26,322 bases of DNA, taken from the IMG/VR virus record IMGVR_UViG_3300045988_013119, positions 1-26,322 of that record, one strand, 5' to 3'. Each line of letters begins with the position of its first letter. The stretch's first letter is position 1. A program made the translations under genes and the position numbers. Under the pieces are notes generated by a model that saw only the letters and a program-made list of their open reading frames with translations, was not told the DNA's origin and searched no databases. The DNA comes from a virus (Duplodnaviria; Heunggongvirae; Uroviricota; Caudoviricetes). Positions 338 to 25,281 of this stretch are shown here, one piece after another.

Positions 338-355
338 AGGCCGCAAGAGCGGCCT
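338..355. terminator. Hairpin AGGCCGC-AAGA-GCGGCCT between convergent ORFs, candidate bidirectional terminator
   Basis: A 7-bp GC-rich stem with a 4-nt loop sits between the stop of 74-331 (+) and the stop of 354-1082 (-). T/A-rich tracts flank it on both sides. Confidence 0.45.
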
Positions 356-1082
356 ATCGTTTCGCTTTGTGCTCATCCCAGCACGTTTTGCACCATGCCA
401 TTAAGCCGTCCGCATTTTGATTATTAGGGTAAAAGCTGGTTCGTTTTCTGCGGACATTACAAATTGGGCACCACTTCATATGGCGTGTATTCTTTGGGCC
501 ATCGAGACACCTTGCACACCACTTAGTCAATCCATCTGGATTTTTTGACGATTTCCTGAATTTTTCATATGGAAGGTTTATTCTGCATCGCAAGCACTGC
601 TTGCTACCACTTGAAACTCTGTTAGCTGATTCTTCTTTTGGCGGCGATGCAGAAGGTATTCTTGCTGGCTCTGATACTGCCTGAGGTGCTTTTTTAGATG
701 ACTGAGACGATATGTCATCACCAGGGAATCTTCCATGATATGCCGGACGCGTTGACACTCCAGGTGGAAGCTCAGCTGTAAACGGCTTTGGCTGAATCAG
801 TTGCCTCTCTTTTGCTAACTCCTGCTGTTTATAATATGTCTGGATTACCGCACTATCATAAGCAGGAGGTGCGGAAATATTAGGCGCATTACCTCCAGTT
901 TTTTGAAACTGAGTAGAGGTGTGTTCTATCACCTGTGTACGATTAATCGTTATCTCCCCATCTTCGGTCTTTATCGTTTTGTTATGATTAACGACCGTAC
1001 GATCAGAGATCTTAGTCTTGTTCTGGTTGATAACGTAAATAATCACCGCAACCACACCAACAACTATCCAGAAAACTTCCAT
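354..1082 (-). CDS. Membrane-anchored protein with a C-terminal tandem Cys-rich (zinc-ribbon-like) domain; function unknown
   Basis: 242-aa ORF with GAGG 7 nt upstream of the ATG. Residues 4-18 (FWIVVGVVAVIIYVI) form a hydrophobic helix followed by K/R residues, then a Ser/Pro/Gln-rich linker. The C-terminus carries repeated CxxC ... DGL..WCxxC units (CLRC...PDGLTKWCARC; WCPIC...ADGLMAWCKTC). Confidence 0.8.
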   Translation of the reverse strand: MEVFWIVVGVVAVIIYVINQNKTKISDRTVVNHNKTIKTEDGEITINRTQVIEHTSTQFQKTGGNAPNISAPPAYDSAVIQTYYKQQELAKERQLIQPKPFTAELPPGVSTRPAYHGRFPGDDISSQSSKKAPQAVSEPARIPSASPPKEESANRVSSGSKQCLRCRINLPYEKFRKSSKNPDGLTKWCARCLDGPKNTRHMKWCPICNVRRKRTSFYPNNQNADGLMAWCKTCWDEHKAKR

Positions 1083-1101: not shown

Positions 1102-1118
1102 ATTACCTTAAAGGTAAT
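1102..1118. promoter_or_regulatory. Operator-like palindrome ATTACCTTAAAGGTAAT (copy A of ATTACCTT-N3-GGTAA)
   Basis: Perfect 17-bp palindrome 20 bp upstream of the start codon of the 354-1082 gene, in a divergent intergenic region. The same half-sites recur at 1195-1211 and 19342-19358. Confidence 0.45.
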
Positions 1119-3097: not shown

Positions 3098-3109
3098 GTG
3101 ACATGTCAC
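3098..3109. repeat. 12-bp perfect palindrome GTGACATGTCAC, copy 1
   Basis: Exact 12-mer also present at 20382-20393 and 22647-22658. Here it sits between the stop of the 3117-3257 ORF and the terminator hairpin. Confidence 0.9.
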
Positions 3110-3116
3110 GCTCACG

Positions 3117-3257
3117 TTATGACAAGCCTATGTACCCTGCTACACCAGATAATATCAAAATAACTGCAACAGCAAATTCGCCATCGTCAATGATACATTT
3201 ACGGTTCATAACGCCAAGTGCAACAAGCGCAAACACAACAAGAATAAAAGCAATCAT
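3117..3257 (-). CDS. 46-aa small membrane protein (two predicted hydrophobic helices), holin-like candidate
   Basis: ATG with AAGGATGAG RBS 9 nt after the stop of the 824-aa gene. Translation is MIAFILVVFALVALGVMNRKCIIDDGEFAVAVILILSGVAGYIGLS. Absent from the supplied ORF track because of its size. Confidence 0.5.
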   Translation of the reverse strand: MIAFILVVFALVALGVMNRKCIIDDGEFAVAVILILSGVAGYIGLS

Positions 3258-3266
3258 TTCTCATCC

Positions 3267-5741
3267 TTATTGCGGAGTGACATCCTGTGGTCGCCACCAG
3301 TATGTCTGGTTAAACTCTTTCTTCGAACGTTGCTCCATTTTACGCAAATAGCCTGGTGAAAAATACTCCTGCATCTGGTTAAAGATCATGTGATCGAGAG
3401 CCGCCTTTAAGTACCAGAGATTCGCACCTGGCATCAAACCTTTCCCCAGCTTCACCAGATCACCACCAGTCTGCTCACTCTTCCCTTCCACAGCATTTAA
3501 CGGTATGCCCTGAGCAATCTTCACTACGTCATCAACCAGACCAGCTACCGGGCCAAGCATCGACGCCAGCGCGCCGCTTCCGTACCTAGTGTGATCTGAC
3601 AATAAAAAGTCACCGTAAAGGCCAAGACCACCACCTTTCAGTAGAGCACCAAGCCAAAATTTAGCAGCATCTTCTCCTGTCATCTCGCGAGGATTACGAC
3701 CAGACGCAAGGTCGTTAAGTTGCTGCGACAAAGCGCCAAGAATGGTCGTACTGGCAATAAACGTCGCAATATATGCCGCACGCCCACCAGCAGACGGCAT
3801 ACCCATAGCGCGTGACCAGTGACGCATAACTACCGAGATAGGGAACGATTTAAACAGGAAAACACTTCTCGTTAATTCACCTTTCCATGTTCCACGCTGA
3901 ATACCAGAACCGGTTATCAGTTGCTCACGTGCTCCCGGTGTAATAACAGCCATATCAACTTCTTCAGTTACGGCACCGAGAAGTTTACGCATTGCCTCAA
4001 ATTTCACGCGTTCAGGCTCACCAAGATGTTTAACTGCTGAATCAGGGATACGCATAATGCTTTCCGGTGTCAGCATCGTATTATTGCCGTTCCCCCAGTC
4101 CTCCTGTTGCGCCAGCTTCCATACGCTCCAGTCTGTTTCAGTAATCCCTTTGCTTTTCAGGATACGAAAATCAGAGTCATCGAGGCTACGAAGGTCTGGT
4201 GTCCGTGACACTACCTCTCCCAGGCTTCCCATCATTGTTACGCCATAGGCGCGCTTGTGCGCATCTGACCATGCTGTAAGCCCACTGGCACGCATTACCG
4301 CCGTTGCCGCCCAACGAGACACAGACGGCCCCATATTATCCATTGCCCAGCGGTTAACACTGCCAAGTAGAGATTCCATCGCCAGACCAGCGCGGCGCGC
4401 CCGCGCAAGCTCAGTACGGTTCGTTGGGTCCATAGCTTCAAGCTGGTTGCGGAATAACTGGTTCATTGGAAGGTTGGTCACCTTCGCAGACAGATACATG
4501 GTTCCAAGATCAGAGAACGATGACAGCAACGCGGATCCTAGTCGGCTGGCAACCAGCCAGTTGCGGATATTGTCAGACCAGCGCGCGATGTGCGGATTCG
4601 CTACAGGCTGTGTCTTTCCGGAAATAAAGTTGTACAGATTCTCTGTGTTGTTCGCCAGCCGCTCGACTTTACCGGTTTTACTCGGGTTAGCTGTTGCCGT
4701 TTCTGCCTTCACCTGATCAAGAAGAGAGCGGAAAACATGATCGGGGTTTGGGCCATATGTTTCCACCAGTGCAATATCTTTACTGATACCTTCCAGGTGA
4801 CCGACCATGATTTCCCATAGAGAGCGATCGCCATAAAGTTGCTGATATTGCAGATAGGAATCTGCATCTTTGAAATGTATCTGTCGTGATGCATTACCCC
4901 GGTTAGCACGTGCGCCGGAAATTCGCATTCCGGTATCAGTAAGCTTATTCAGCCCACCAGTAGCGATCGTGTTATAAGCCTCTCCAAGAAATGCAGACAA
5001 CTCGGCATCGTTCATCAGTTGTCCATCGACTCGGGTATAATATTTGCGATCCAGCTTACCTATAACATCGCTAACCCACTTATCCTTTGATACCGCCCCA
5101 ACCTTTTCCATAGAATGATGTTGAGGGATCCCCCAGTTTTCGAGATAGCCAATGTCCCCACCAGCATCATTAAACCGGCGGCGCAGTAGCTCTGTCACTT
5201 CTCTCCACGCCTTAGCACCTTTTCTTGCTTTAGCATTGCCAGTATTTTGCCCTCGCATTTCATATACCAGGTCACGCACGCCAGCTTCATCTTCAAACAG
5301 GCCAAAAAAGCGAGGATCAACTGCTTCAAATGCCTCCTGCAATTGACTCAATGCATAATCACGAGTGGCTTTTGTTCTGGATTCAACAGAGAGGAAATTC
5401 GATTTACCGTCTGCATTAAAAGCAATAGTACGGTTAAGAGCGCCAAGTTTCCCATCAGCCCCTTGATAGCTATTGATAAATTTATCCAATCTCTGACGTG
5501 CGGCTATAGTGAGAGCCACACGACGTTTCTTTAATGCCGCTTCTCGCTGTAATTCTTCAGATGCCAATTGTGCTGCACGATACAACCGTTCTGATTCGGA
5601 AAGTTGTCGCCACGACATCGGATCATCACGAGCAATGGAGCGCATATTTCGATAAATGCGGTCTTCAATGTTCTGTATTTCTCGCGCCGTTAACGTGCGC
5701 TGCGCCGCCTGCTGGACCGCTTGTATACATTCCTGTCTCAT
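3267..5741 (-). CDS. Large internal virion (ejection-type) protein, 824 aa
   Basis: Last large ORF of the structural operon, with GAGG RBS. The C-terminal third contains hydrophobic Gly/Ala-rich segments typical of podovirus ejection proteins. Position matches the T7 gp15/gp16 slot. Confidence 0.8.
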   Translation of the reverse strand: MRQECIQAVQQAAQRTLTAREIQNIEDRIYRNMRSIARDDPMSWRQLSESERLYRAAQLASEELQREAALKKRRVALTIAARQRLDKFINSYQGADGKLGALNRTIAFNADGKSNFLSVESRTKATRDYALSQLQEAFEAVDPRFFGLFEDEAGVRDLVYEMRGQNTGNAKARKGAKAWREVTELLRRRFNDAGGDIGYLENWGIPQHHSMEKVGAVSKDKWVSDVIGKLDRKYYTRVDGQLMNDAELSAFLGEAYNTIATGGLNKLTDTGMRISGARANRGNASRQIHFKDADSYLQYQQLYGDRSLWEIMVGHLEGISKDIALVETYGPNPDHVFRSLLDQVKAETATANPSKTGKVERLANNTENLYNFISGKTQPVANPHIARWSDNIRNWLVASRLGSALLSSFSDLGTMYLSAKVTNLPMNQLFRNQLEAMDPTNRTELARARRAGLAMESLLGSVNRWAMDNMGPSVSRWAATAVMRASGLTAWSDAHKRAYGVTMMGSLGEVVSRTPDLRSLDDSDFRILKSKGITETDWSVWKLAQQEDWGNGNNTMLTPESIMRIPDSAVKHLGEPERVKFEAMRKLLGAVTEEVDMAVITPGAREQLITGSGIQRGTWKGELTRSVFLFKSFPISVVMRHWSRAMGMPSAGGRAAYIATFIASTTILGALSQQLNDLASGRNPREMTGEDAAKFWLGALLKGGGLGLYGDFLLSDHTRYGSGALASMLGPVAGLVDDVVKIAQGIPLNAVEGKSEQTGGDLVKLGKGLMPGANLWYLKAALDHMIFNQMQEYFSPGYLRKMEQRSKKEFNQTYWWRPQDVTPQ

Positions 5742-17062: not shown

Positions 17063-17355
17063 TCCTGTTCACTGGCCTCTTTGGCCATCTTCAAATACTG
17101 TTCAGGGCAATGCGCCATAACGCGCTGAAACAGTTCCAGCGCCAGATTGCGTTGCCCCTCATTAAATGCCATTGCCATAGCATCCATCGGAGAGATAGCG
17201 GAAAACACCCGGCCTTTCTCCAGCACCGACCAGACAACGCGACGCCCCTGTTCACTGCTCATGACAAAGCGAATGTCATCAATTTCACGCTGTGCCATGT
17301 CACGTTGCTTACGGGCGTTTTCTTCTTTCAGTTGATCGTCTTCGTAATCTGTCAT
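17059..17355 (-). CDS. Small protein between portal and scaffold genes, 98 aa
   Basis: Four-nt overlaps with both neighbours, consistent with translational coupling. Confidence 0.7.
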   Translation of the reverse strand: MTDYEDDQLKEENARKQRDMAQREIDDIRFVMSSEQGRRVVWSVLEKGRVFSAISPMDAMAMAFNEGQRNLALELFQRVMAHCPEQYLKMAKEASEQE

Positions 17356-19341: not shown

Positions 19342-19358
19342 ATTACCTTTCAGGTAAC
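19342..19358. promoter_or_regulatory. Operator-like inverted repeat ATTACCTTTCAGGTAAC (copy C)
   Basis: Shares ATTACCTT-N3-GGTAA with copies A and B. A perfect TTGACA hexamer lies at 19321-19326, and the 10-mer AATTATTACC is also present at 19276-19285. Confidence 0.4.
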
Positions 19359-19679: not shown

Positions 19680-19756
19680 GTGGCATTAGCTCAGTTGGAC
19701 AGAGCAACCGCCTTCTAAGCGGTTGGTCGCAGGTTCGAATCCTGCATGCCACGCCA
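19680..19756 (+). tRNA. tRNA-Arg (anticodon UCU), phage-encoded, argU-like core with a divergent acceptor stem
   Basis: Cloverleaf read by hand: acceptor GTGGCAT/ATGCCAC, D-arm GCTC-AGTTGGACA-GAGC, anticodon arm ACCGC-CTTCTAA-GCGGT (anticodon TCT), variable TGGTC, T-arm GCAGG-TTCGAAT-CCTGC, discriminator G, encoded CCA. Confidence 0.85.
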
Positions 19757-19799: not shown

Positions 19800-19841
19800 G
19801 GCGGTGATGGTTTCCCTTGAAGGACTATCACCGCCCTTTTT
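19800..19841 (+). terminator. Terminator downstream of the tRNA (GGCGGTGAT ... ATCACCGCC then CTTTTT)
   Basis: 9-bp perfect stem with an 18-nt loop followed by a T-run. Confidence 0.5.
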
Positions 19842-19919: not shown

Positions 19920-19943
19920 GCCCGGTTCGCCGGGCATTTTTTT
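19920..19943 (+). terminator. Strong hairpin plus U-tract (GCCCGG-TTCG-CCGGGC then ATTTTTTT) abutting the RBS of the 140-aa ORF; terminator or attenuator
   Basis: 6-bp GC stem with a UUCG tetraloop and 7 T. Only about 11 nt separate the T-run from the ATG at 19955. Confidence 0.6.
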
Positions 19944-19954
19944 AAGGTGAGATT

Positions 19955-20377
19955 ATGAAGACAATTGATATGTTGGCTAAGTATCTAAATGAATGGCCAT
20001 TAAAATATTCTCGTATCGTTCAGGCTGAAGACTGCGTTTTTTATGGCGTTTTTGCTGGTAATGAAATGCATTACGAAGTAATTCAGAGTGAGGGACTGAC
20101 CGGGTTAACTCTTAGCGAAGACCATGGTACTAGCGTTACGTTCCATGACTGGATAACAGCACAACGTTCTGAAATGGAAAAAGGCGATGTGTTTGATATT
20201 TCTCGCTCTGTATACGCCAAAGAAAAAAGTGATGATGATTACATGCGCGAAAACTTATACAACATGAAGTTACAATGCCTGGCTGAAGTGCTTAGTAAAA
20301 GATCTTTACTTGATGTGGTTGGTGCTGAGCAGGACGCCAAGGCAATCAACGCCGCATTCGATAAAATAACCTTCTAA
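19955..20377 (+). CDS. Hypothetical soluble protein, 140 aa, on a cargo locus between terminase and portal
   Basis: AAGGTGA RBS. The ORF looks AT-rich by eye and is transcribed opposite to the late operon. It has its own terminator and no hydrophobic segments. I recognise no homology. Confidence 0.75.
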   Translation: MKTIDMLAKYLNEWPLKYSRIVQAEDCVFYGVFAGNEMHYEVIQSEGLTGLTLSEDHGTSVTFHDWITAQRSEMEKGDVFDISRSVYAKEKSDDDYMRENLYNMKLQCLAEVLSKRSLLDVVGAEQDAKAINAAFDKITF

Positions 20378-20381
20378 CGCA

Positions 20382-20393
20382 GTGACATGTCAC
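20382..20393. repeat. 12-bp perfect palindrome GTGACATGTCAC, copy 2
   Basis: Exact 12-mer 5 nt after the TAA stop of the 140-aa ORF and 4 nt before the terminator hairpin. Confidence 0.9.
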
Positions 20394-20396
20394 AAA

Positions 20397-20424
20397 CAGC
20401 CAGCCGATGAGCTGGCTTTGTTTT
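20397..20424 (+). terminator. Rho-independent terminator (AGCCAGC-CGATGA-GCTGGCT then TTGTTTT)
   Basis: 7-bp stem and T-rich tail between the convergent 140-aa ORF and the terminase large subunit gene. Confidence 0.65.
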
Positions 20425-20467: not shown

Positions 20468-21943
20468 TTAAGCATAGGGATCGTAATCTGTGATGGCCTT
20501 GCCTTGCTGGTTCTGCTGACCGGGAATTCGCAGACGCTTCGACACAGGGAACGCAAACGTCAGCAGTAGCGCATCGCCTTTACCAGGAGAACGCCCAAGC
20601 CGCTCCTTGATATCTTCCTTCTGTTCGATAATGATTTTACCGTCCACGCGAACTTTGTACTCTGCCGCCGACAGGTCGTCCGCTGTTTCCTGGTCATCCA
20701 GCATGCCGCCCAGCCTCAGCCATGTCTTGCATGAATTGAACATCTCCCCACGCTTGTTGAGCATCTGCGGGTCAGTAGACGCGCCACCGAACGGAACAAG
20801 TTGCCATGTACGACCCCATCCGTCACCGATTGACTTCAAACCGGTTCCGTAACCGAAGTCGATGAACACCGCGTCAGCCTGATACTGGTCTTCAAAGTCA
20901 GCGATACGCTTTGCCATAATCAGATCGTCAGTGGTCTTGTTGCCAGTCCACAGCACCTTACTGTGCAGCCCCTGCCGCAGGTATATCACAGCGTCATCAA
21001 CGCCTGAGTATGCCGGGTCAACGCCGATTATCACCGGAGCATGTGCAACCTGCGCAGCGGTGACCACCCGTTTCATTGCCTCGTCAGTAAGTCCGGTAGG
21101 GATAAACTGCAATTCAGATGCATCCGGGAATATGCCGCGCACACGGATTTTAACGAAGTCGCTGTCTTCCCCGTAGTCATCAACCCATTTCTGCAACTGC
21201 TGTTTGTTGGTGCCTTCCACCGTCCGGCTGTCAATCTGCGCAGTTTTCCAGCGGTGTTTATATTTGCGGAAACATTCGCGGAAACGTCCGGTATTACGCG
21301 TCGGGTTTCCGAACGCCACCCAGATAATCTCAGTGTCTTCGTCCGTTAGCGCACCCTCGGCAACTTCCCACACCAGATCCGCAATGTTCGACGCTTCATC
21401 GAATACCACGATGATGCGTTTGCGCTCGTTGTGTAGTCCGGCGAATGCCTCAGTGTTGTGCTCAGACCAGGGTATTGCGTCAGCTCGCCACCGCTTGTCG
21501 TGTCCAGGATCATTGCTGTACATCGCGGTAGCGGTACAGGTAAACCAGTCTTTCGTGATAGCAAGGTTCGACCACTTGATAATTTCCGGCCAGGTCTTCG
21601 TTCGTAGCTGGTTGTCGGTGTTGGCGGTCACCACAACCTTACAATCCTCGCAAGTGGACATGCCCCAGTTGATCAGCATTGAGATGAATGCGGATTTACC
21701 AATACCGTGACCCGAAGCGCGTGCCAGCATAAGCGGCTGATAGCGCGTCTCTGGATTCTGCAGGTGATCACGTATCTCTCGGAACGCATCAGCCTGCCAC
21801 TGACGTGGACCGGTGGCATGTGCCAGTTCAGTCCCATCTTCCCCCCACGGGAACGCATAGAGGGCATAGCCAAGCGGATCGTGAGTGAACCCTGCAATAT
21901 CCTCGATTAACTGCTCTTCAGGAGATAACGCTGTATCTGTCAC
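20468..21943 (-). CDS. Terminase large subunit, 491 aa
   Basis: P-loop-like SGHGIGKS, Walker-B-like IIVVFDEAS, a C-terminal nuclease-type region (VIIGVDPAYSG), and a four-nt overlap with the small subunit gene. Confidence 0.9.
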   Translation of the reverse strand: MTDTALSPEEQLIEDIAGFTHDPLGYALYAFPWGEDGTELAHATGPRQWQADAFREIRDHLQNPETRYQPLMLARASGHGIGKSAFISMLINWGMSTCEDCKVVVTANTDNQLRTKTWPEIIKWSNLAITKDWFTCTATAMYSNDPGHDKRWRADAIPWSEHNTEAFAGLHNERKRIIVVFDEASNIADLVWEVAEGALTDEDTEIIWVAFGNPTRNTGRFRECFRKYKHRWKTAQIDSRTVEGTNKQQLQKWVDDYGEDSDFVKIRVRGIFPDASELQFIPTGLTDEAMKRVVTAAQVAHAPVIIGVDPAYSGVDDAVIYLRQGLHSKVLWTGNKTTDDLIMAKRIADFEDQYQADAVFIDFGYGTGLKSIGDGWGRTWQLVPFGGASTDPQMLNKRGEMFNSCKTWLRLGGMLDDQETADDLSAAEYKVRVDGKIIIEQKEDIKERLGRSPGKGDALLLTFAFPVSKRLRIPGQQNQQGKAITDYDPYA

Positions 21944-22536
21944 TGATTACCATCCTGACGTTCTTTGAGTCGCTTCCTGGCTGCTGCTATGCGATCAGCA
22001 ATTGTCACATTCACATTAACATCCAGACGTTCTTTGAATGCGTTGACATCAACATGCTTACCAATCAGCTCAAGGTTCTTCACCTTGTCAGGCCATTTAA
22101 TTTTTTTGAGGATTGTCTCTATTGAATCCTCGTTCATGTTCATGATGGTCGATGACAGATCAAAGCCACTAAGCGTAGTGCGCCAGATTTTCGGCCACTC
22201 ACGGATTGGTTTAAGGCTCCCATCGTCGTTGAGGATGTCGATCACGTCCATCTGGTCGATCTCCACCAGGCGCATGAGAACGTAATCAGCACTGACACGC
22301 ATTCGTTTGTTGCGCTCCTCCATCAACTCGGCAATCCGTTTCTGAATGCGTTCATCGCGCATCATGACACTGGCTTTAACTGCCGCTGTATTTGGGGAGA
22401 ATCCTGCGTTAATCGCAGCCTGAGTCTGGTTTTCAGGCGTTTTGATGTATGACTGGCAATAAGCCTCCTGCATTGCTGTGAGCGGCTTAAATTGCGTTGA
22501 TTTGCGTTTATAGGTTTTAGGTTCAGCAGGCATCAT
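21940..22536 (-). CDS. Terminase small subunit, 198 aa
   Basis: Start moved to the ATGATG at 22536; the track's TTG at 22614 would run through the terminator-like hairpin. The N-terminus (KPLTAMQEAYCQSYIKTPENQTQAAINAGFSPNTA) has the typical small-terminase pattern. Confidence 0.8.
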   Translation of the reverse strand: MMPAEPKTYKRKSTQFKPLTAMQEAYCQSYIKTPENQTQAAINAGFSPNTAAVKASVMMRDERIQKRIAELMEERNKRMRVSADYVLMRLVEIDQMDVIDILNDDGSLKPIREWPKIWRTTLSGFDLSSTIMNMNEDSIETILKKIKWPDKVKNLELIGKHVDVNAFKERLDVNVNVTIADRIAAARKRLKERQDGNQ

Positions 22537-22579
22537 AACCACCGTGGTAATTGTTACCGTTGTGGTAATAGTACCATGC

Positions 22580-22605
22580 AAAATAAAGCCGCCATAGTTG
22601 GCGGC
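22580..22605 (-). terminator. Terminator-like hairpin (GCCGCC-AACTAT-GGCGGC then TTTATTTT on the minus strand) immediately upstream of the late operon
   Basis: 6-bp GC stem and U-tract between the early-region genes and the small terminase start, like a lambdoid tR-prime/antitermination arrangement. Confidence 0.5.
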
Positions 22606-22646
22606 AGTATTCAAAATCCATCAAATTCATCATGCATAATCTACTC

Positions 22647-22658
22647 GTGACATGTCAC
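22647..22658. repeat. 12-bp perfect palindrome GTGACATGTCAC, copy 3
   Basis: Exact 12-mer overlapping the stop codon of the 22655-22993 gene, about 40 nt upstream (in the transcription direction) of the hairpin at 22580-22605. Confidence 0.9.
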
Positions 22659-22993
22659 ACTATTAATTTCGTTTCATGCCAGCCTTTAGTCACCCAGCAT
22701 TGCGAGTCACCATTACACGGGCATGAATTAACTGGAACTCTCTCGCCGCACTTACCGCAACGTTTTCTGCTGATCGATTTTATACGCCCGCGCACGCGTG
22801 CATCATCCTGGCGGATCAGTAACGCTATATACTCACCAAATTCGTAAGGCGCACGCCCGGGGCGACGCGTGGCACAGTTACGCTCCAGCATTTCAATTTC
22901 CTGAGCATCAAGCACAATCTCCAGCTTACGCACACCAGATGCAGCTTGTCTGGCTCTCTGAGCGGCTTTGCGCTCTGCTGCTGATTTAGCCAT
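22655..22993 (-). CDS. Basic protein with C-terminal Cys cluster (zinc-finger-like), 112 aa; candidate late-gene regulator by position
   Basis: ATG at 22993; the track's 22996 start is a TTG. The C-terminus reads CGKCGERVPVNSCPCNGDSQC. It is the last early gene before the terminator-like hairpin and terminase. Confidence 0.7.
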   Translation of the reverse strand: MAKSAAERKAAQRARQAASGVRKLEIVLDAQEIEMLERNCATRRPGRAPYEFGEYIALLIRQDDARVRGRIKSISRKRCGKCGERVPVNSCPCNGDSQCWVTKGWHETKLIV

Positions 22994-23267
22994 CAATATT
23001 TACCTTTATCGCGAACACCTTTACCGGTTTATCACCGAAGTGCGGATGTGTGATTGTCTTGATTTCATATCCGTCATACGGGACGTCAATTCTTCGGCTG
23101 GAATCGTCGCGCTTCGGATATCCCTTTGTGATAATCAGGCGGTCATACTCCCGGAACATAATTCGCTTATTCCAGTAGTCATTACACAGGCGATACTCTT
23201 CCGTTTTCTCTCCACGAATCATGGCATCGAAGTATTCACCTTTGACGGCAAGTTGCAGGTTAGCCAT
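22986..23267 (-). CDS. ASCH/DUF3850-like small protein, 93 aa
   Basis: Start at the TAATG overlap with the upstream gene, GGAGG RBS. The motif KGEYFDAMIRGEKTEEYR matches my recollection of the DUF3850 family. Confidence 0.7.
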   Translation of the reverse strand: MANLQLAVKGEYFDAMIRGEKTEEYRLCNDYWNKRIMFREYDRLIITKGYPKRDDSSRRIDVPYDGYEIKTITHPHFGDKPVKVFAIKVNIDG

Positions 23268-23527
23268 TACCGCACCTCCAGTCTCCATACCGCCTGACCA
23301 ATCCGGCTGGCATAGGTATCTTTGGATACTGCTCCGTCTTTAGCCAGCTCCATAAGAATTTTGCGCAAATCTGCCGAACGCCATTCTTCATCAGGAAATT
23401 CCTTCTCCATTGCCAACCGCAGATTCCAGGTTGCTATCGTGAATGGATATTCCCCGCCGAGAGCTTTATCTTGCAGGGCAGCCCGGGAACGCATCACCTG
23501 CAAAACCTTCTCTTTTACATCCATCAT
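23267..23527 (-). CDS. Hypothetical early protein, 86 aa
   Basis: Start at the ATGA overlap with the upstream gene's stop and GAAGGGGG RBS. The track's longer version overlaps the upstream gene by about 150 nt. Confidence 0.6.
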   Translation of the reverse strand: MMDVKEKVLQVMRSRAALQDKALGGEYPFTIATWNLRLAMEKEFPDEEWRSADLRKILMELAKDGAVSKDTYASRIGQAVWRLEVR

Positions 23528-23895
23528 TTCGCCCCCTTCGGAGGTTCTGGCAACGTCATCCAGAACAAGACGTTCCCTAACCACGATAAAGTGCCGTCGC
23601 TCAACTCCACGTATTCCCCTTGCACCTGTCCTGCCATATACTCGCCGTGCTTTGAATAAATTAAAATCCAATCATCTTGAGGGGGCATTCGCTCACTACA
23701 GCTTATCCAACCATCCGGAATTACCGGATAGTTGCCCGACAGTTCGTTCAACTTGTAAGTCTGGCTTACAGTCTCGACTTCCAGCGATGCCAGAGCAATT
23801 TCATAAGCCCGACGCTCAATATTGTCTCGGACGTCCAGGCTGCCTATACGCTCTTTGATTTCTTTAATCAGTTCTTTGTCGGTGAACGTTGTCAT
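23524..23895 (-). CDS. DUF551-like prophage protein, 123 aa
   Basis: The C-terminal signature (WILIYSK...WLGNVLFWMTLPEPP) matches my recollection of DUF551 proteins from enterobacterial prophages. Confidence 0.7.
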   Translation of the reverse strand: MTTFTDKELIKEIKERIGSLDVRDNIERRAYEIALASLEVETVSQTYKLNELSGNYPVIPDGWISCSERMPPQDDWILIYSKHGEYMAGQVQGEYVELSDGTLSWLGNVLFWMTLPEPPKGAK

Positions 23896-24187: not shown

Positions 24188-24679
24188 TCACTCTCCTTTG
24201 ATGCGAATGCCAGTGGTACTCATTCTCCTGATTTCCCAAAGCACACGAGGAACACCACCGTTTCCGACCGGATCGCGTTTACTCCGCAGGGCGACGCTTG
24301 ATTCCGCCCAGCTTTTTCTTGGAGGAAGCTCTTTCACACGAACAAAACCAGCTGCGCGAAGAGATGCTCCTGATTCATCTGCCTGGGTGTACGTAATACA
24401 ACGTTGATAACCCATAGCTTTTGCTGCCCGCCAGACAGCACCATAAAGCGCGCTGTTAGCGTTGCGTTCTCCTGTGGTACATGTGCGATTTACTTCAAGT
24501 GTTAATCCATCGTCCAAATGTCGTGCAACAGGTCTACCAGCTGTCGCCACACCTATCAATTCTCCGGCATCATTTCTCAGACCAATGCTGAATTTATGCC
24601 CAACAGGTGGTTTATTGTGTCGGTGATGTCTGGATATAAACGCCTTCGCAACACGAAGAGTAACCGGTGAAATTTGCAT
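24188..24679 (-). CDS. Hypothetical protein, 163 aa, possibly GNAT-fold acetyltransferase-like
   Basis: Start at the internal ATG at 24679 with AAGGAG RBS. The motif ASLRAAGFVRV is a weak GNAT-like signature. Confidence 0.65.
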   Translation of the reverse strand: MQISPVTLRVAKAFISRHHRHNKPPVGHKFSIGLRNDAGELIGVATAGRPVARHLDDGLTLEVNRTCTTGERNANSALYGAVWRAAKAMGYQRCITYTQADESGASLRAAGFVRVKELPPRKSWAESSVALRSKRDPVGNGGVPRVLWEIRRMSTTGIRIKGE

Positions 24680-24681
24680 TC

Positions 24682-25281
24682 TCACTCTCCTTTGATGCCA
24701 ATGTTTACAGCCTGGCAAGCCTCTTTGAGCACCCAGTCAACAGCGTCTTTCCATGCTCCGGTTTCGGCTGGCGGATTCTCATTTTTTACCTGCTCATAGA
24801 AACGCATTGCTTTAACCAGTCCTTCAGGCACTACCGACGCTGGCAAGGCGGGGTGATGGTAGAGTGGCACAGTTTTGTACAGTGGCTCGCCAGGAGTTCT
24901 GTCAACCTGATTCCATTCTTCAACCCAGGCATCAACAACCGCTTTGCTGGTTGATACATGTTCTTCTGAATCTACATTTTGTCCTGATATACAGAACATA
25001 ACTGCCTCTGCTTCCAGCTCGCCCAGCAGCGCTAAGACGGTAGCGGGATTGGCTGCGGCGATGAATTCAGCATTGGCCTGCTGTTCCATTTGGAAATCTT
25101 CATCGAAACCGCTTTCTGGATGCGCCCCTTCAATTCTGCAAATGGGAATATATCCAGCAGCCTCGCGATGAATTAGAGCATCATCACCATCAAATCGGCC
25201 CTCTCCATATTCGAGCGACCACTCGCCACACGTTGCTTTTTCTGCCTTAGCACGCAGTGCCTGATAATCAATCTTGCTCAC
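24682..25281 (-). CDS. Ead/Ea22-like prophage protein, 199 aa
   Basis: The segment FIAAANPATVLALLGELEAE and overall acidic composition match my recollection of the Ea22-like family common in lambdoid early regions. Confidence 0.7.
   Translation of the reverse strand: MSKIDYQALRAKAEKATCGEWSLEYGEGRFDGDDALIHREAAGYIPICRIEGAHPESGFDEDFQMEQQANAEFIAAANPATVLALLGELEAEAVMFCISGQNVDSEEHVSTSKAVVDAWVEEWNQVDRTPGEPLYKTVPLYHHPALPASVVPEGLVKAMRFYEQVKNENPPAETGAWKDAVDWVLKEACQAVNIGIKGE

What the first reader, a model, noticed from the sequence alone, without database searches (positions are those of the whole stretch)
22537..22996. Early/late junction: Cys-rich small protein, palindrome, terminator-like hairpin and direct repeats before terminase
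The last early gene (22655-22993) encodes a basic 112-aa protein with a CxxC-x8-CxC-x5-C cluster. Its stop codon is embedded in a copy of GTGACATGTCAC. A GC hairpin with U-tract follows, then two imperfect direct repeats containing ATTACCAC, then the small terminase start. A terminator sitting immediately upstream of the first late gene is the arrangement expected for antitermination-dependent late expression, which makes the Cys-rich protein a candidate late regulator. The supplied ORF track's TTG start for terminase would run through this hairpin and is probably wrong.
Basis: inference. Interest (0 to 1): 0.45.

Follow-up and report, generated by a model that had tools for sequence, protein, structure and literature searches.

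The report
Phage operon boundary with paired DNA-binding sites
This is the junction between the early genes and the DNA-packaging genes of a phiV10/epsilon15-type E. coli phage: the small Cys-rich protein is an uncharacterised ribbon-helix-helix DNA-binding protein whose likely 12-bp target overlaps its own stop codon in many unrelated phages, and the "direct repeats" are two repressor operators on a promoter of the packaging genes.

Summary
The window is a Uetakevirus (phiV10/epsilon15-like).

- **The 112-aa protein** (phiV10 gp55, eps15 gp49, N15 gp46, PHROG 536) is not Q-like or Ogr/Delta-like. Its AlphaFold model (pLDDT 91) matches ribbon-helix-helix (RHH) DNA-binding proteins, with a C-terminal Cys4 zinc knuckle added.
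- **The palindrome** generalises to GTGAC-NN-GTCAC. It overlaps or abuts the stop codon of this gene family in E. coli, Salmonella, Klebsiella, Pantoea, Rahnella, Pectobacterium, N15/phiKO2 and Vibrio phages. It occurs three times per genome against about 0.03 expected. Each copy follows the order stop codon, site, terminator. It is most likely the protein's operator.
- **The "direct repeats"** are two tandem 17-bp dyads, ATTACC-N5-GGTAAT. The epsilon15 GenBank record annotates this class as prophage repressor sites. They overlap a conserved extended -10 (TGnTAnnAT) and the terS ribosome-binding site.

So the packaging operon probably has its own repressor-controlled promoter downstream of the terminator, and antitermination is not required. 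Homologues also coexist with true Q proteins in N15, ZF40 and at least one lambdoid prophage.

The ATG start for terS is correct and the TTG start is wrong. The function of the RHH-Zn protein is inferred, not shown.

The parts
22655..22993 (-). Last gene of the early-right operon: 112-aa basic RHH + Cys4 zinc-knuckle protein (phiV10 gp55 / eps15 gp49 / N15 gp46 family, PHROG 536)
22647..22658 (.). Site A1: palindrome GTGACATGTCAC containing the TGA stop of the RHH-Zn gene; presumptive operator of that protein
   Evidence: the same GTGAC-NN-GTCAC overlaps or abuts the stop codon of homologues in many lineages.
22580..22605 (-). Intrinsic terminator ending the early operon: 7-bp GC stem, 4-nt loop, TTTATTTT
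   Evidence: 7 pairs, 6 GC. (-13.8 kcal/mol). Conserved in eps15, PAT1 and C. braakii; replaced by non-homologous terminators in Rahnella, Pantoea, Citrobacter and Enterobacter prophages.
22568..22576 (-). Predicted extended -10 promoter element TGGTACTAT for the terS operon; its last two bases start operator O1
   Evidence: Read directly from the sequence. TG and TAnnAT are conserved while the middle base varies: TGG/TGA/TGT + TACTAT, TATTAT, TAGTAT or TATGAT, across lineages with different upstream DNA. Not detected by the two-hexamer scan. Inference.
22553..22569 (-). Operator O1, ATTACCACAACGGTAAC (class ATTACC-N5-GGTAAT)
   Evidence: Same class annotated 'protein_bind repressor, lysogeny' in eps15 GenBank AY150271.2, including the site before terS.
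22535..22551 (-). Operator O2, ATTACCACGGTGGTTAT, overlapping the terS Shine-Dalgarno (GGTGG, 22543..22539) and the first ATG
   Evidence: The tandem pair is also present in eps15, PAT1 and the Klebsiella phage.
21940..22536 (-). terS (small terminase), true start ATG 22536 or 22533
   Evidence: Pfam Terminase_2, E 1e-29, from residue 19. Annotation in relatives. In-frame stops upstream in other lineages.
20382..20393 (.). Site A2: second exact GTGACATGTCAC, between the stop of the reverse-oriented ORF140 (20377) and a bidirectional terminator hairpin (20398-20417) after terL
   Evidence: Conserved after terL in eps15 and phiV10, in the Klebsiella phage and in six Uetakevirus-like prophages of other genera.
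3098..3109 (.). Site A3: third exact GTGACATGTCAC, 7 nt after the stop of the last structural-operon gene (3117..3257) and 1 nt before terminator GGCCGCTTTCGCGGCC+TTGTTTTT
   Evidence: Same position in phiV10 (19493) and eps15 (19517).
19342..19358 (-). Another ATTACC-N5-GGTAAT operator, heading the portal/structural operon
   Evidence: Equivalent sites at phiV10 3251 and eps15 2931, the latter annotated as a repressor site.

Best explanation
The region is a transcription-unit boundary of a phiV10/epsilon15-type temperate podophage, and it holds two separate protein-DNA systems.

(1) RHH-Zn protein and its site. The last early gene encodes a dimeric ribbon-helix-helix DNA-binding protein with a C-terminal zinc knuckle. 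Its cognate site is the palindrome GTGAC-NN-GTCAC, which overlaps its own stop codon and recurs at two other operon ends. I infer that the bound protein acts as a boundary or roadblock-type regulator. It would limit transcription out of the operon it closes, so it would also limit its own mRNA. The lacI-O3 case is a precedent for an operator at the 3' end of the regulator's own gene. The adjacent intrinsic terminator would complete the insulation.

(2) Packaging operon promoter. Downstream of the terminator, the packaging/late operon starts from its own extended -10 promoter. That promoter is covered by two tandem 17-bp operators of the prophage repressor (SPC32H Rep family). In the lysogen terS would therefore be silenced directly by Rep, not by a Q-type antitermination switch.

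Shown: the sequence features, their conservation and enrichment, the fold class, and the linkage between gene and site.
Inferred: that the protein binds the palindrome, that the TGnTAnnAT element is an active promoter, that Rep binds O1/O2, and the roadblock role.
For: Fold:
- Weak RHH Pfam and NCBIfam hits.
- Invariant Cys.

Gene-site linkage:
- GTGAC-NN-GTCAC overlaps the TGA stop in the window, eps15, PAT1, the Klebsiella phage, N15, phiKO2 and Vibrio 10N.237. It lies 0-7 nt past the stop in ZF40 and Chlobot.
- 15 of 21 species-representative prophages have it within 10 nt of the stop.
- Only N2 spacing occurs.
- Three sites per genome in eps15, N15 and the window, against 0.02-0.05 expected.
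- Half-sites are invariant while the centre varies (AT, TG, AG, AC, CT, GT).
- The three Providencia homologues (two of them identical in sequence) have a replaced beta-strand (FVTPQWQVES instead of RKLELVLD) and lack the motif.

Boundary role:
- All three window copies follow the order stop codon, site, terminator.
- In other lineages the gene is followed by non-homologous terminators.

Promoter and Rep:
- The motif is enriched: 15 in phiV10 against 1.04 expected, 6 in the window against 0.71.
- It clusters around the repressor gene and at unit heads, and is annotated as repressor sites in eps15.
- phiV10 gp40 is a homologue of SPC32H Rep 5D50, E 4e-42.
- TGnTAnnAT fused to ATTACC is conserved in at least 7 lineages whatever lies upstream.
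Against: - No binding, transcript or mutant data exist for this family.
- Rouxiella has a typical beta-strand but no site within 3 kb. The Yersinia P2-like phage and Samsonia have the site only kilobases away.
- In N15 and phiKO2 the site is followed by the next gene, not by a terminator.
- A roadblock placed upstream of a terminator is an unusual design.
- The extended -10 has no recognisable -35 and was not called by the promoter scan, so it may need an activator.
- Intergenic space in a compact phage genome coincides with terminators anyway, so proximity of site and terminator could be incidental.
Confidence: 0.5

Rival explanations
1. The Cys-rich protein is the late antiterminator. It is loaded at or near its DNA site just upstream of the terminator and lets RNA polymerase read through T1 into terS and the late genes. 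This would be Q-like logic with a non-Q protein.
For: - The gene sits immediately before the late operon in all Uetakevirus-like genomes.
- The order gene, DNA site, terminator is conserved even where the terminators are not homologous.
- No Q homologue is annotated in phiV10 or eps15.
- The profile has a weak resemblance to the DksA/TraR RNA-polymerase-binding zinc finger, E 0.02-0.04.
Against: - No homology to any Q family or to Ogr.
- The family coexists with annotated Q-like proteins in N15 and ZF40, and by my reading of unscanned ORFs in at least one lambdoid prophage.
- A conserved promoter-like element with repressor operators lies after the terminator.
- In the Klebsiella phage, L097 and L103, terS has that element but no terminator in front.
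- Site A2 lies after, not before, the hairpin in the late direction.
- Site A3 ends the structural operon. Read-through there would run antisense into the Bro-N/ant gene.
- No conserved promoter or pause element lies between the gene and T1.
- Foldseek gives no TraR or DksA match.
Confidence: 0.12
2. The RHH-Zn protein is an upstream activator of the weak (no -35) terS promoter, binding site A1 at about -72 to -102.
For: - The extended -10 lacks a -35.
- The distance from site to -10 is 53, 55, 73/74 or 84 nt in different lineages, roughly in helical phase. These are my own counts, with about a 0.1 chance probability.
- In Vibrio K233 a site lies 19 nt before terS.
Against: - Natural 1-nt spacer variants exist.
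- In the Klebsiella, Pseudocitrobacter and C. werkmanii prophages a whole gene separates A1 from the terS promoter.
- Sites A2 and A3 and the N15, ZF40 and lambdoid copies are not upstream of any late promoter.
- Most RHH proteins are repressors (established knowledge).
Confidence: 0.1
3. The palindromes are not this protein's sites. They could be bound by a host factor (for example MatP, whose matS half-sites are identical), or serve as recombination or mosaic-boundary sequences, or act as a small RNA hairpin.
For: - The half-sites GTGAC/GTCAC equal matS, GTGAC-RNY-GTCAC (PMC3603311).
- The family's host range, as sampled here, is almost wholly Enterobacterales, Vibrio and Aeromonas.
- The sites sit at module junctions.
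Against: - Spacing is strictly N2, never N3.
- Prophages avoid true matS (PMC3603311).
- As RNA the hairpin is only -2.9 kcal/mol. The arms never covary; they are invariant, which is the signature of sequence-specific recognition.
- Presence of the site tracks presence of the gene and its beta-strand type.
Confidence: 0.1
4. The protein is a MatP-like or centromere-binding-like DNA organiser. It would bridge its three sites through the zinc domain, for replication, segregation or packaging rather than transcription.
For: - A binding site immediately downstream of the binding protein's gene is the classic parB-parS / sopB-sopC layout (established knowledge).
- The sites flank terS-terL.
Against: - hhalign against MatP aligns only the RHH helices, E 0.06.
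- There is no four-helix bundle or coiled coil.
- Many genomes appear to carry one site only in the stretches examined.
- N15 already has SopAB.
- The module occurs far from the terminase genes in lambdoid, N15 and ZF40 contexts.
Confidence: 0.08

Closest known systems
Ribbon-helix-helix repressors (Arc/Mnt of P22, CopG, MetJ, NikR, antitoxins such as TacA/ParD)
   Same: Predicted beta-alpha-alpha core with a basic N-terminal arm. Short palindromic target of the size one RHH dimer covers. Phage-encoded small regulator.
   Different: Carries a conserved C-terminal Cys4 zinc knuckle, which I do not know from characterised RHH proteins (own knowledge). No Pfam RHH model reaches threshold. The site sits at the 3' end of its own gene, inside the stop codon, instead of at a promoter.
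MatP/matS of E. coli
   Same: RHH DNA reader preceded by a basic helix. Identical half-sites GTGAC/GTCAC. Occurs in the same bacterial groups.
   Different: The site is 12 bp (N2), not 13 bp (RNY). The protein lacks the N-terminal four-helix bundle and the C-terminal coiled coil. No significant sequence similarity (E 0.06).
Lambda-type Q antitermination module (Q gene, PR' with QBE, tR')
   Same: A regulator gene lies directly upstream of a terminator that precedes the late genes.
   Different: No Q homology. No conserved promoter or pause between the gene and the terminator. A separate promoter with repressor operators follows the terminator. The family coexists with real Q proteins elsewhere.
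SPC32H/epsilon15 Rep repressor and its palindromic operators
   Same: O1 and O2 fit ATTACC-N5-GGTAAT, the class annotated as repressor sites in epsilon15. A tandem pair would suit a Rep tetramer. The phiV10 repressor is a 5D50 homologue.
   Different: Here the operators guard a late (terminase) operon rather than the immunity-region promoters. Binding to these particular sites has not been tested.
lacI-O3 roadblock autoregulation and mycobacteriophage L5 'stoperators'
   Same: Regulator-binding sites placed at gene ends or overlapping stop codons, where they block elongating polymerase.
   Different: Different protein folds. For this family the roadblock activity is only inferred.

Membership tests
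Q-type antiterminators (lambda Q PF03589, 82-type PF06530, Q21) | Sequence or profile homology to a Q family | tested here: not met
   Pfam at E<=10 gave none. Among 59 family members at E<=1, no Q family appears in the 25 listed of 43 families. hhalign against N15 Q-like gave E 0.41 and against lambda Q E 0.31.
Q-type antiterminators (lambda Q PF03589, 82-type PF06530, Q21) | Late promoter with a Q-binding element and promoter-proximal pause between the Q gene and the terminator | tested here: inconclusive
   Only a 9/12 sigma-70-like match that uses the palindrome as -35. Its -10 and its spacing to the terminator are not conserved between the window and eps15.
Q-type antiterminators (lambda Q PF03589, 82-type PF06530, Q21) | Is the sole late switch of its phage | tested here: not met
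   Homologues coexist with annotated Q-like proteins in N15 (gp40) and ZF40 (gp25). A Q-like ORF also lies downstream in at least one lambdoid prophage, by my reading of unscanned ORFs.
Ogr/Delta late activators (PF04606) | About 72-aa CxxC...CxxxxC zinc-finger protein homologous to Ogr | tested here: not met
   No Pfam hit.
Ogr/Delta late activators (PF04606) | TGT-N12-ACA site upstream of late promoters | tested here: not met
   None in 22537-22700.
Ribbon-helix-helix (CopG/Arc/MetJ) superfamily | beta-alpha-alpha fold | tested here: met
Ribbon-helix-helix (CopG/Arc/MetJ) superfamily | Sequence membership in a curated RHH family | tested here: inconclusive
   Only sub-threshold hits: RHH_5, RHH_1 and RepB-RCR_reg in a few members; YbfE, E 0.052.
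Ribbon-helix-helix (CopG/Arc/MetJ) superfamily | Dimer that binds a short repeated or palindromic DNA site | not testable with these tools
   Indirect support only: gene-site co-occurrence and the beta-strand/motif correlation.
MatP/matS | 13-bp site GTGAC-RNY-GTCAC | tested here: not met
   All sites have N2 spacing; none has N3.
MatP/matS | MatP architecture (four-helix bundle + RHH + coiled coil) and homology | tested here: not met
DksA/TraR C4 zinc-finger proteins | CxxC-x17-CxxC finger homologous to PF01258 | tested here: inconclusive
   Profile against PDB: YbiI E 0.02, TraR E 0.04. The fourth Cys is not in the TraR position. No Pfam hit. No structural match.
Epsilon15/SPC32H Rep operators | 17-bp dyad ATTACC-N5-GGTAAT enriched at the immunity region and unit heads | tested here: met
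   O1 and O2 have 1 mismatch each. Enrichment. Annotated as repressor sites in AY150271.2. Clusters flank the repressor gene.
Epsilon15/SPC32H Rep operators | Bound by Rep | not testable with these tools
   The Rep gene lies outside the window. phiV10 gp40 is a homologue of 5D50, E 4e-42.
Intrinsic (rho-independent) terminators | GC-rich hairpin followed by a U tract | tested here: met
   7-bp stem with 6 GC pairs, loop of 4, TTTATTTT; -13.8 kcal/mol.

The most novel reading that the evidence does not exclude
PHROG 536 proteins would be a new class of DNA-site-dependent elongation or termination regulators. An RHH reader is fused to a DksA/TraR-like zinc module. The protein is deposited on a matS-like 12-bp site built into its own stop codon, from where it acts on RNA polymerase arriving at the adjacent terminator. 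It would either antiterminate into late or nin genes, or enforce the operon boundary. This would give Uetakeviruses their missing late switch.
Probability: 0.12. Interest if true: 0.8.

Novelty: new variant of a known kind. Interest (0 to 1): 0.55.

Why it matters
Epsilon15/phiV10-type phages are structural-biology models, serotype converters and diagnostic reporter phages, yet I found no description of how their late genes are controlled in the papers I could search.

This analysis gives a concrete and testable map of the early/late junction:
- a repressor-guarded promoter for the terminase operon;
- an uncharacterised, widespread family of small phage proteins paired with a precise 12-bp target.

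A regulator whose operator is embedded in its own stop codon, conserved from E. coli podophages to N15 and Vibrio phages, is an unusual and easily testable design. The resemblance of the site to the chromosome-organising matS motif adds a second question.

The work also corrects the terS start in RefSeq phiV10-type annotations.

Tried and rejected
- **Q and Ogr/Delta homology.** Tested with Pfam and hhalign; negative.
- **Ogr-type DNA site.** Absent.
- **Palindrome as the prophage repressor operator.** Rejected. phiV10 and eps15 have no copy in the immunity region. The repressor-type motif is the other one, ATTACC-N5-GGTAAT.
- **Palindrome as a CRP site.** Rejected on spacing, by direct reading.
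- **Palindrome as a stable RNA hairpin.** Rejected: -2.9 kcal/mol and invariant arms.
- **Palindrome as true matS.** Rejected: spacing is N2, not N3.
- **Rfam search of the region.** Only a sub-threshold rseX hit, 28.6 bits against 50.
- **RNA hairpin formed by O1/O2 that would sequester the terS SD and AUG** (-19.5 kcal/mol). I regard it as a by-product of two palindromic operators, though a translational effect is not excluded.
- **TraR/DksA lead.** Not supported by structure searches.
- **Technical failures.** Alignment-based locus searches failed for lack of conserved stretches. The afdb50 fold library was unavailable. The epsilon15 genome paper and the SPC32H Rep paper were not held. The phage ZX5 paper deals with other regulators.

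Full report
**Identity of the window.** The genes of interest are on the minus strand. Megablast finds 96-98% identity to E. coli O157 typing phages 9 and 10, PAS61 and phiV10, all in genus Uetakevirus, the epsilon15 group. Read on the minus strand the order is:
- early-right operon (DUF1064, Mom-like, DUF551, ASCH);
- the 112-aa gene;
- terS and terL;
- a reverse-oriented insert carrying tRNA-Arg;
- portal and structural genes.

The 112-aa gene corresponds to phiV10 gp55 and epsilon15 gp49.

**Checking the observation.**
- The gene runs 22993..22655 and encodes 112 aa with pI 9.8. Cys at 79, 82, 91, 93 and 99 give CxxC-x8-CxC-x5-C. Its ATG overlaps the ASCH stop codon (ATGGCTAA).
- The TGA stop sits inside the perfect palindrome GTGACATGTCAC at 22647-22658.
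- A 7-bp GC hairpin with TTTATTTT follows 41 nt later.
- Two ATTACCAC copies precede the ATG ATG of terS.
- The TTG start at 22614 would read through the hairpin. The Pfam terminase domain starts at residue 19 of the ATG form. Relatives are annotated from the ATG. Three other lineages have in-frame stops 6-39 nt upstream of it.

**The 'direct repeats' are repressor-type operators.** Each ATTACCAC is the left arm of a 17-bp dyad:
- O1 is ATTACCACAACGGTAAC (22569..22553).
- O2 is ATTACCACGGTGGTTAT (22551..22535).

The class ATTACC-N5-GGTAAT has 6 matches in the window against 0.71 expected, and 15 in phiV10 against 1.04. The epsilon15 GenBank record annotates exactly such sites as 'protein_bind, repressor, lysogeny'. 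These include the one before terS and clusters flanking the repressor gene. In phiV10 they head nearly every transcription unit: terS, portal operon, tail fibre, lysis, int, PL, PR and two internal early units that also follow terminators. The phiV10 repressor is a clear homologue of SPC32H Rep, PDB 5D50, E 4e-42. Rep is reported to bind palindromic sites as a tetramer (PMC9638917, discussing Kim et al. 2016), which suits a tandem pair.

**A promoter lies between the terminator and terS.** Immediately upstream of O1 is TGGTACTAT. This fits an extended -10 (TGnTATAAT), and its last two bases begin the operator. Across lineages the TG and TAnnAT are kept while the middle base varies:
- TGG/TGA/TGT + TACTAT in E. 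coli relatives;
- TGTTACTAT in eps15 and PAT1;
- TGGTATTAT in a Klebsiella phage;
- TGTTAGTAT, TGATAGTAT and TGTTATGAT in Pseudocitrobacter, Erwinia and Rahnella/Advenella.

The upstream DNA differs between these lineages: two unrelated terminators, or the end of a umuD-like gene. This is inference from conservation, and the two-hexamer scan did not call it. It still means that terS need not depend on read-through of the terminator. O2 covers the terS SD and ATG. As RNA the two operators fold into a -19.5 kcal/mol hairpin, which I treat as a by-product.

**The protein.**
- No Pfam family matches, for the query or for 59 relatives.
- PHROG 536, 'transcriptional regulator', matches at E 1.6e-54.
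- An exhaustive search found 154 representative relatives at E up to 0.001. Those with a host assignment are from Enterobacterales, Vibrio or Aeromonas; one hit is from an Advenella MAG.
- R13, C79, C82 and C99 are invariant, with a fourth Cys nearby.
- AlphaFold gives pLDDT 91: a basic helix (5-19), then helices 30-42 and 52-74, a zinc knuckle, and helix 100-107.
- Comparisons with N15 Q, lambda Q and P2 Ogr are negative.
- The profile weakly resembles the DksA/TraR zinc finger (YbiI E 0.02, TraR E 0.04). Structure searches do not confirm this.

**The palindrome belongs to the gene.**
- GTGACATGTCAC occurs exactly three times in the window: 22647, 20382 and 3098. It sits at the same three positions in phiV10 and epsilon15.
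- Generalised to GTGAC-NN-GTCAC, it overlaps the TGA stop of the homologue in PAT1, a Klebsiella phage, N15 and phiKO2 (GTGACTGGTCAC) and Vibrio 10N.237 (GTGACAGGTCAC). These proteins are as little as about 35% identical. It lies 0-7 nt past the stop in ZF40 and Chlobot.
- Among 21 species-representative prophages, 12 have it at offset -1 and 3 at +5 or +7.
- The last sense codon varies, but its third base G is fixed.
- Only N2 spacing occurs. N15, eps15 and the window each have three sites against 0.02-0.05 expected.
- The arms are invariant while the centre varies. That is the signature of sequence-specific protein recognition, not of an RNA stem (-2.9 kcal/mol).
- The three Providencia homologues have a different beta-strand, the DNA-reading element of RHH proteins, and they lack the motif.
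- I conclude, by inference, that this is the protein's operator.

**What the sites do.** In the window each copy follows the order stop codon, site, terminator:
- A1: own stop, 41 nt, T1.
- A3: stop of the last structural gene, 7 nt, site, 1 nt, T3.
- A2: stop of the reverse-oriented ORF140, 4 nt, site, 4 nt, bidirectional hairpin after terL.

In other lineages the gene is followed by non-homologous terminators, so it habitually closes an operon. By my reading of their unscanned ORFs, four prophage loci show lambdoid nin-region genes downstream, and at least one has a Q-like ORF. N15 and ZF40 carry both a homologue and an annotated Q-like protein. The family is therefore not a Q substitute in those phages.

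The reading that fits all three window copies is a boundary or roadblock regulator that also limits its own transcript. lacI-O3 and the L5 'stoperators' are precedents (own knowledge). Activation of the terS promoter fits only A1. The spacings of 53, 55, 73/74 and 84 nt are roughly in helical phase, but this is not significant. Antitermination fits A1 but not A2 or A3. None of these roles can be decided without experiments.

**Verdict.** The locus is an operon boundary carrying:
- an uncharacterised RHH-Zn regulator with a conserved gene-end operator;
- an intrinsic terminator;
- a Rep-guarded promoter for the packaging operon.

It is a new variant of a known kind, of moderate interest, with clear experiments available.

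Noticed in passing
window 19680-19756 (+) and 19955-20377 (+): A tRNA-Arg(TCT) and a 140-aa ORF are oriented against the late genes. They form an insert between terL and the portal operon, with their own terminators at 19800-19835, 19920-19935 and 20398-20417.
   Followed up: partly
window 24188-24718 (-): A 176-aa ORF has a sub-threshold Pfam match to the Mom DNA-modification family (E 8.6e-5, 22.7 bits against a cutoff of 27.1).
   Followed up: no
L003 (phiV10) e.g. 20921-20935, 24739-24751, 35116-35130; L091 (eps15) 24751-24764, 35953-35967: Many ATTACC-N5-GGTAAT sites are followed about 30 nt later by a recurring CATATGTGGTTT-like string. It may be the spacer and -10 of a shared promoter type.
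   Followed up: no
L089 3283-3360 (Klebsiella phage ST11-OXA245phi3.2); L097, L098: In some relatives a umuD-like gene with a perfect LexA box (TACTGT-N8-ACAGTA) and a TTGACT -35 is inserted between the RHH-Zn gene and terS. Palindrome A1 then sits 6 nt upstream of that -35.
   Followed up: partly
window 17292-17303: A one-mismatch copy of the palindrome (GTGCCATGTCAC) lies inside the gene after portal. It is present with one mismatch in phiV10 but absent in eps15, so it is probably chance.
   Followed up: yes
L092 (N15) 28550, 33237, 39269: N15 has three GTGAC-NN-GTCAC sites: one at the gp46 stop, one between gene 33 and a terminator, and one inside repA. Two of the three have the same orientation relative to transcription.
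   Followed up: partly
L003 (phiV10 RefSeq) 41-715; L088 (PAT1) 3311-3982: Public annotations of terS in phiV10 and PAT1 use upstream starts that run through the terminator and operators. These are probably mis-annotated starts.
   Followed up: yes
window 23267-23671 (-) and 23524-23895 (-): Two sizeable minus-strand ORFs overlap by about 150 nt. The downstream one carries DUF551. The TTG start of the other is probably too far upstream.
   Followed up: no
window 1102-1118, 1195-1211, 2236-2252: Three more repressor-type operators lie at the far end of the window. One perfect copy sits immediately before the RBS of the 242-aa ORF 354..1082 (tail-fibre region).
   Followed up: partly
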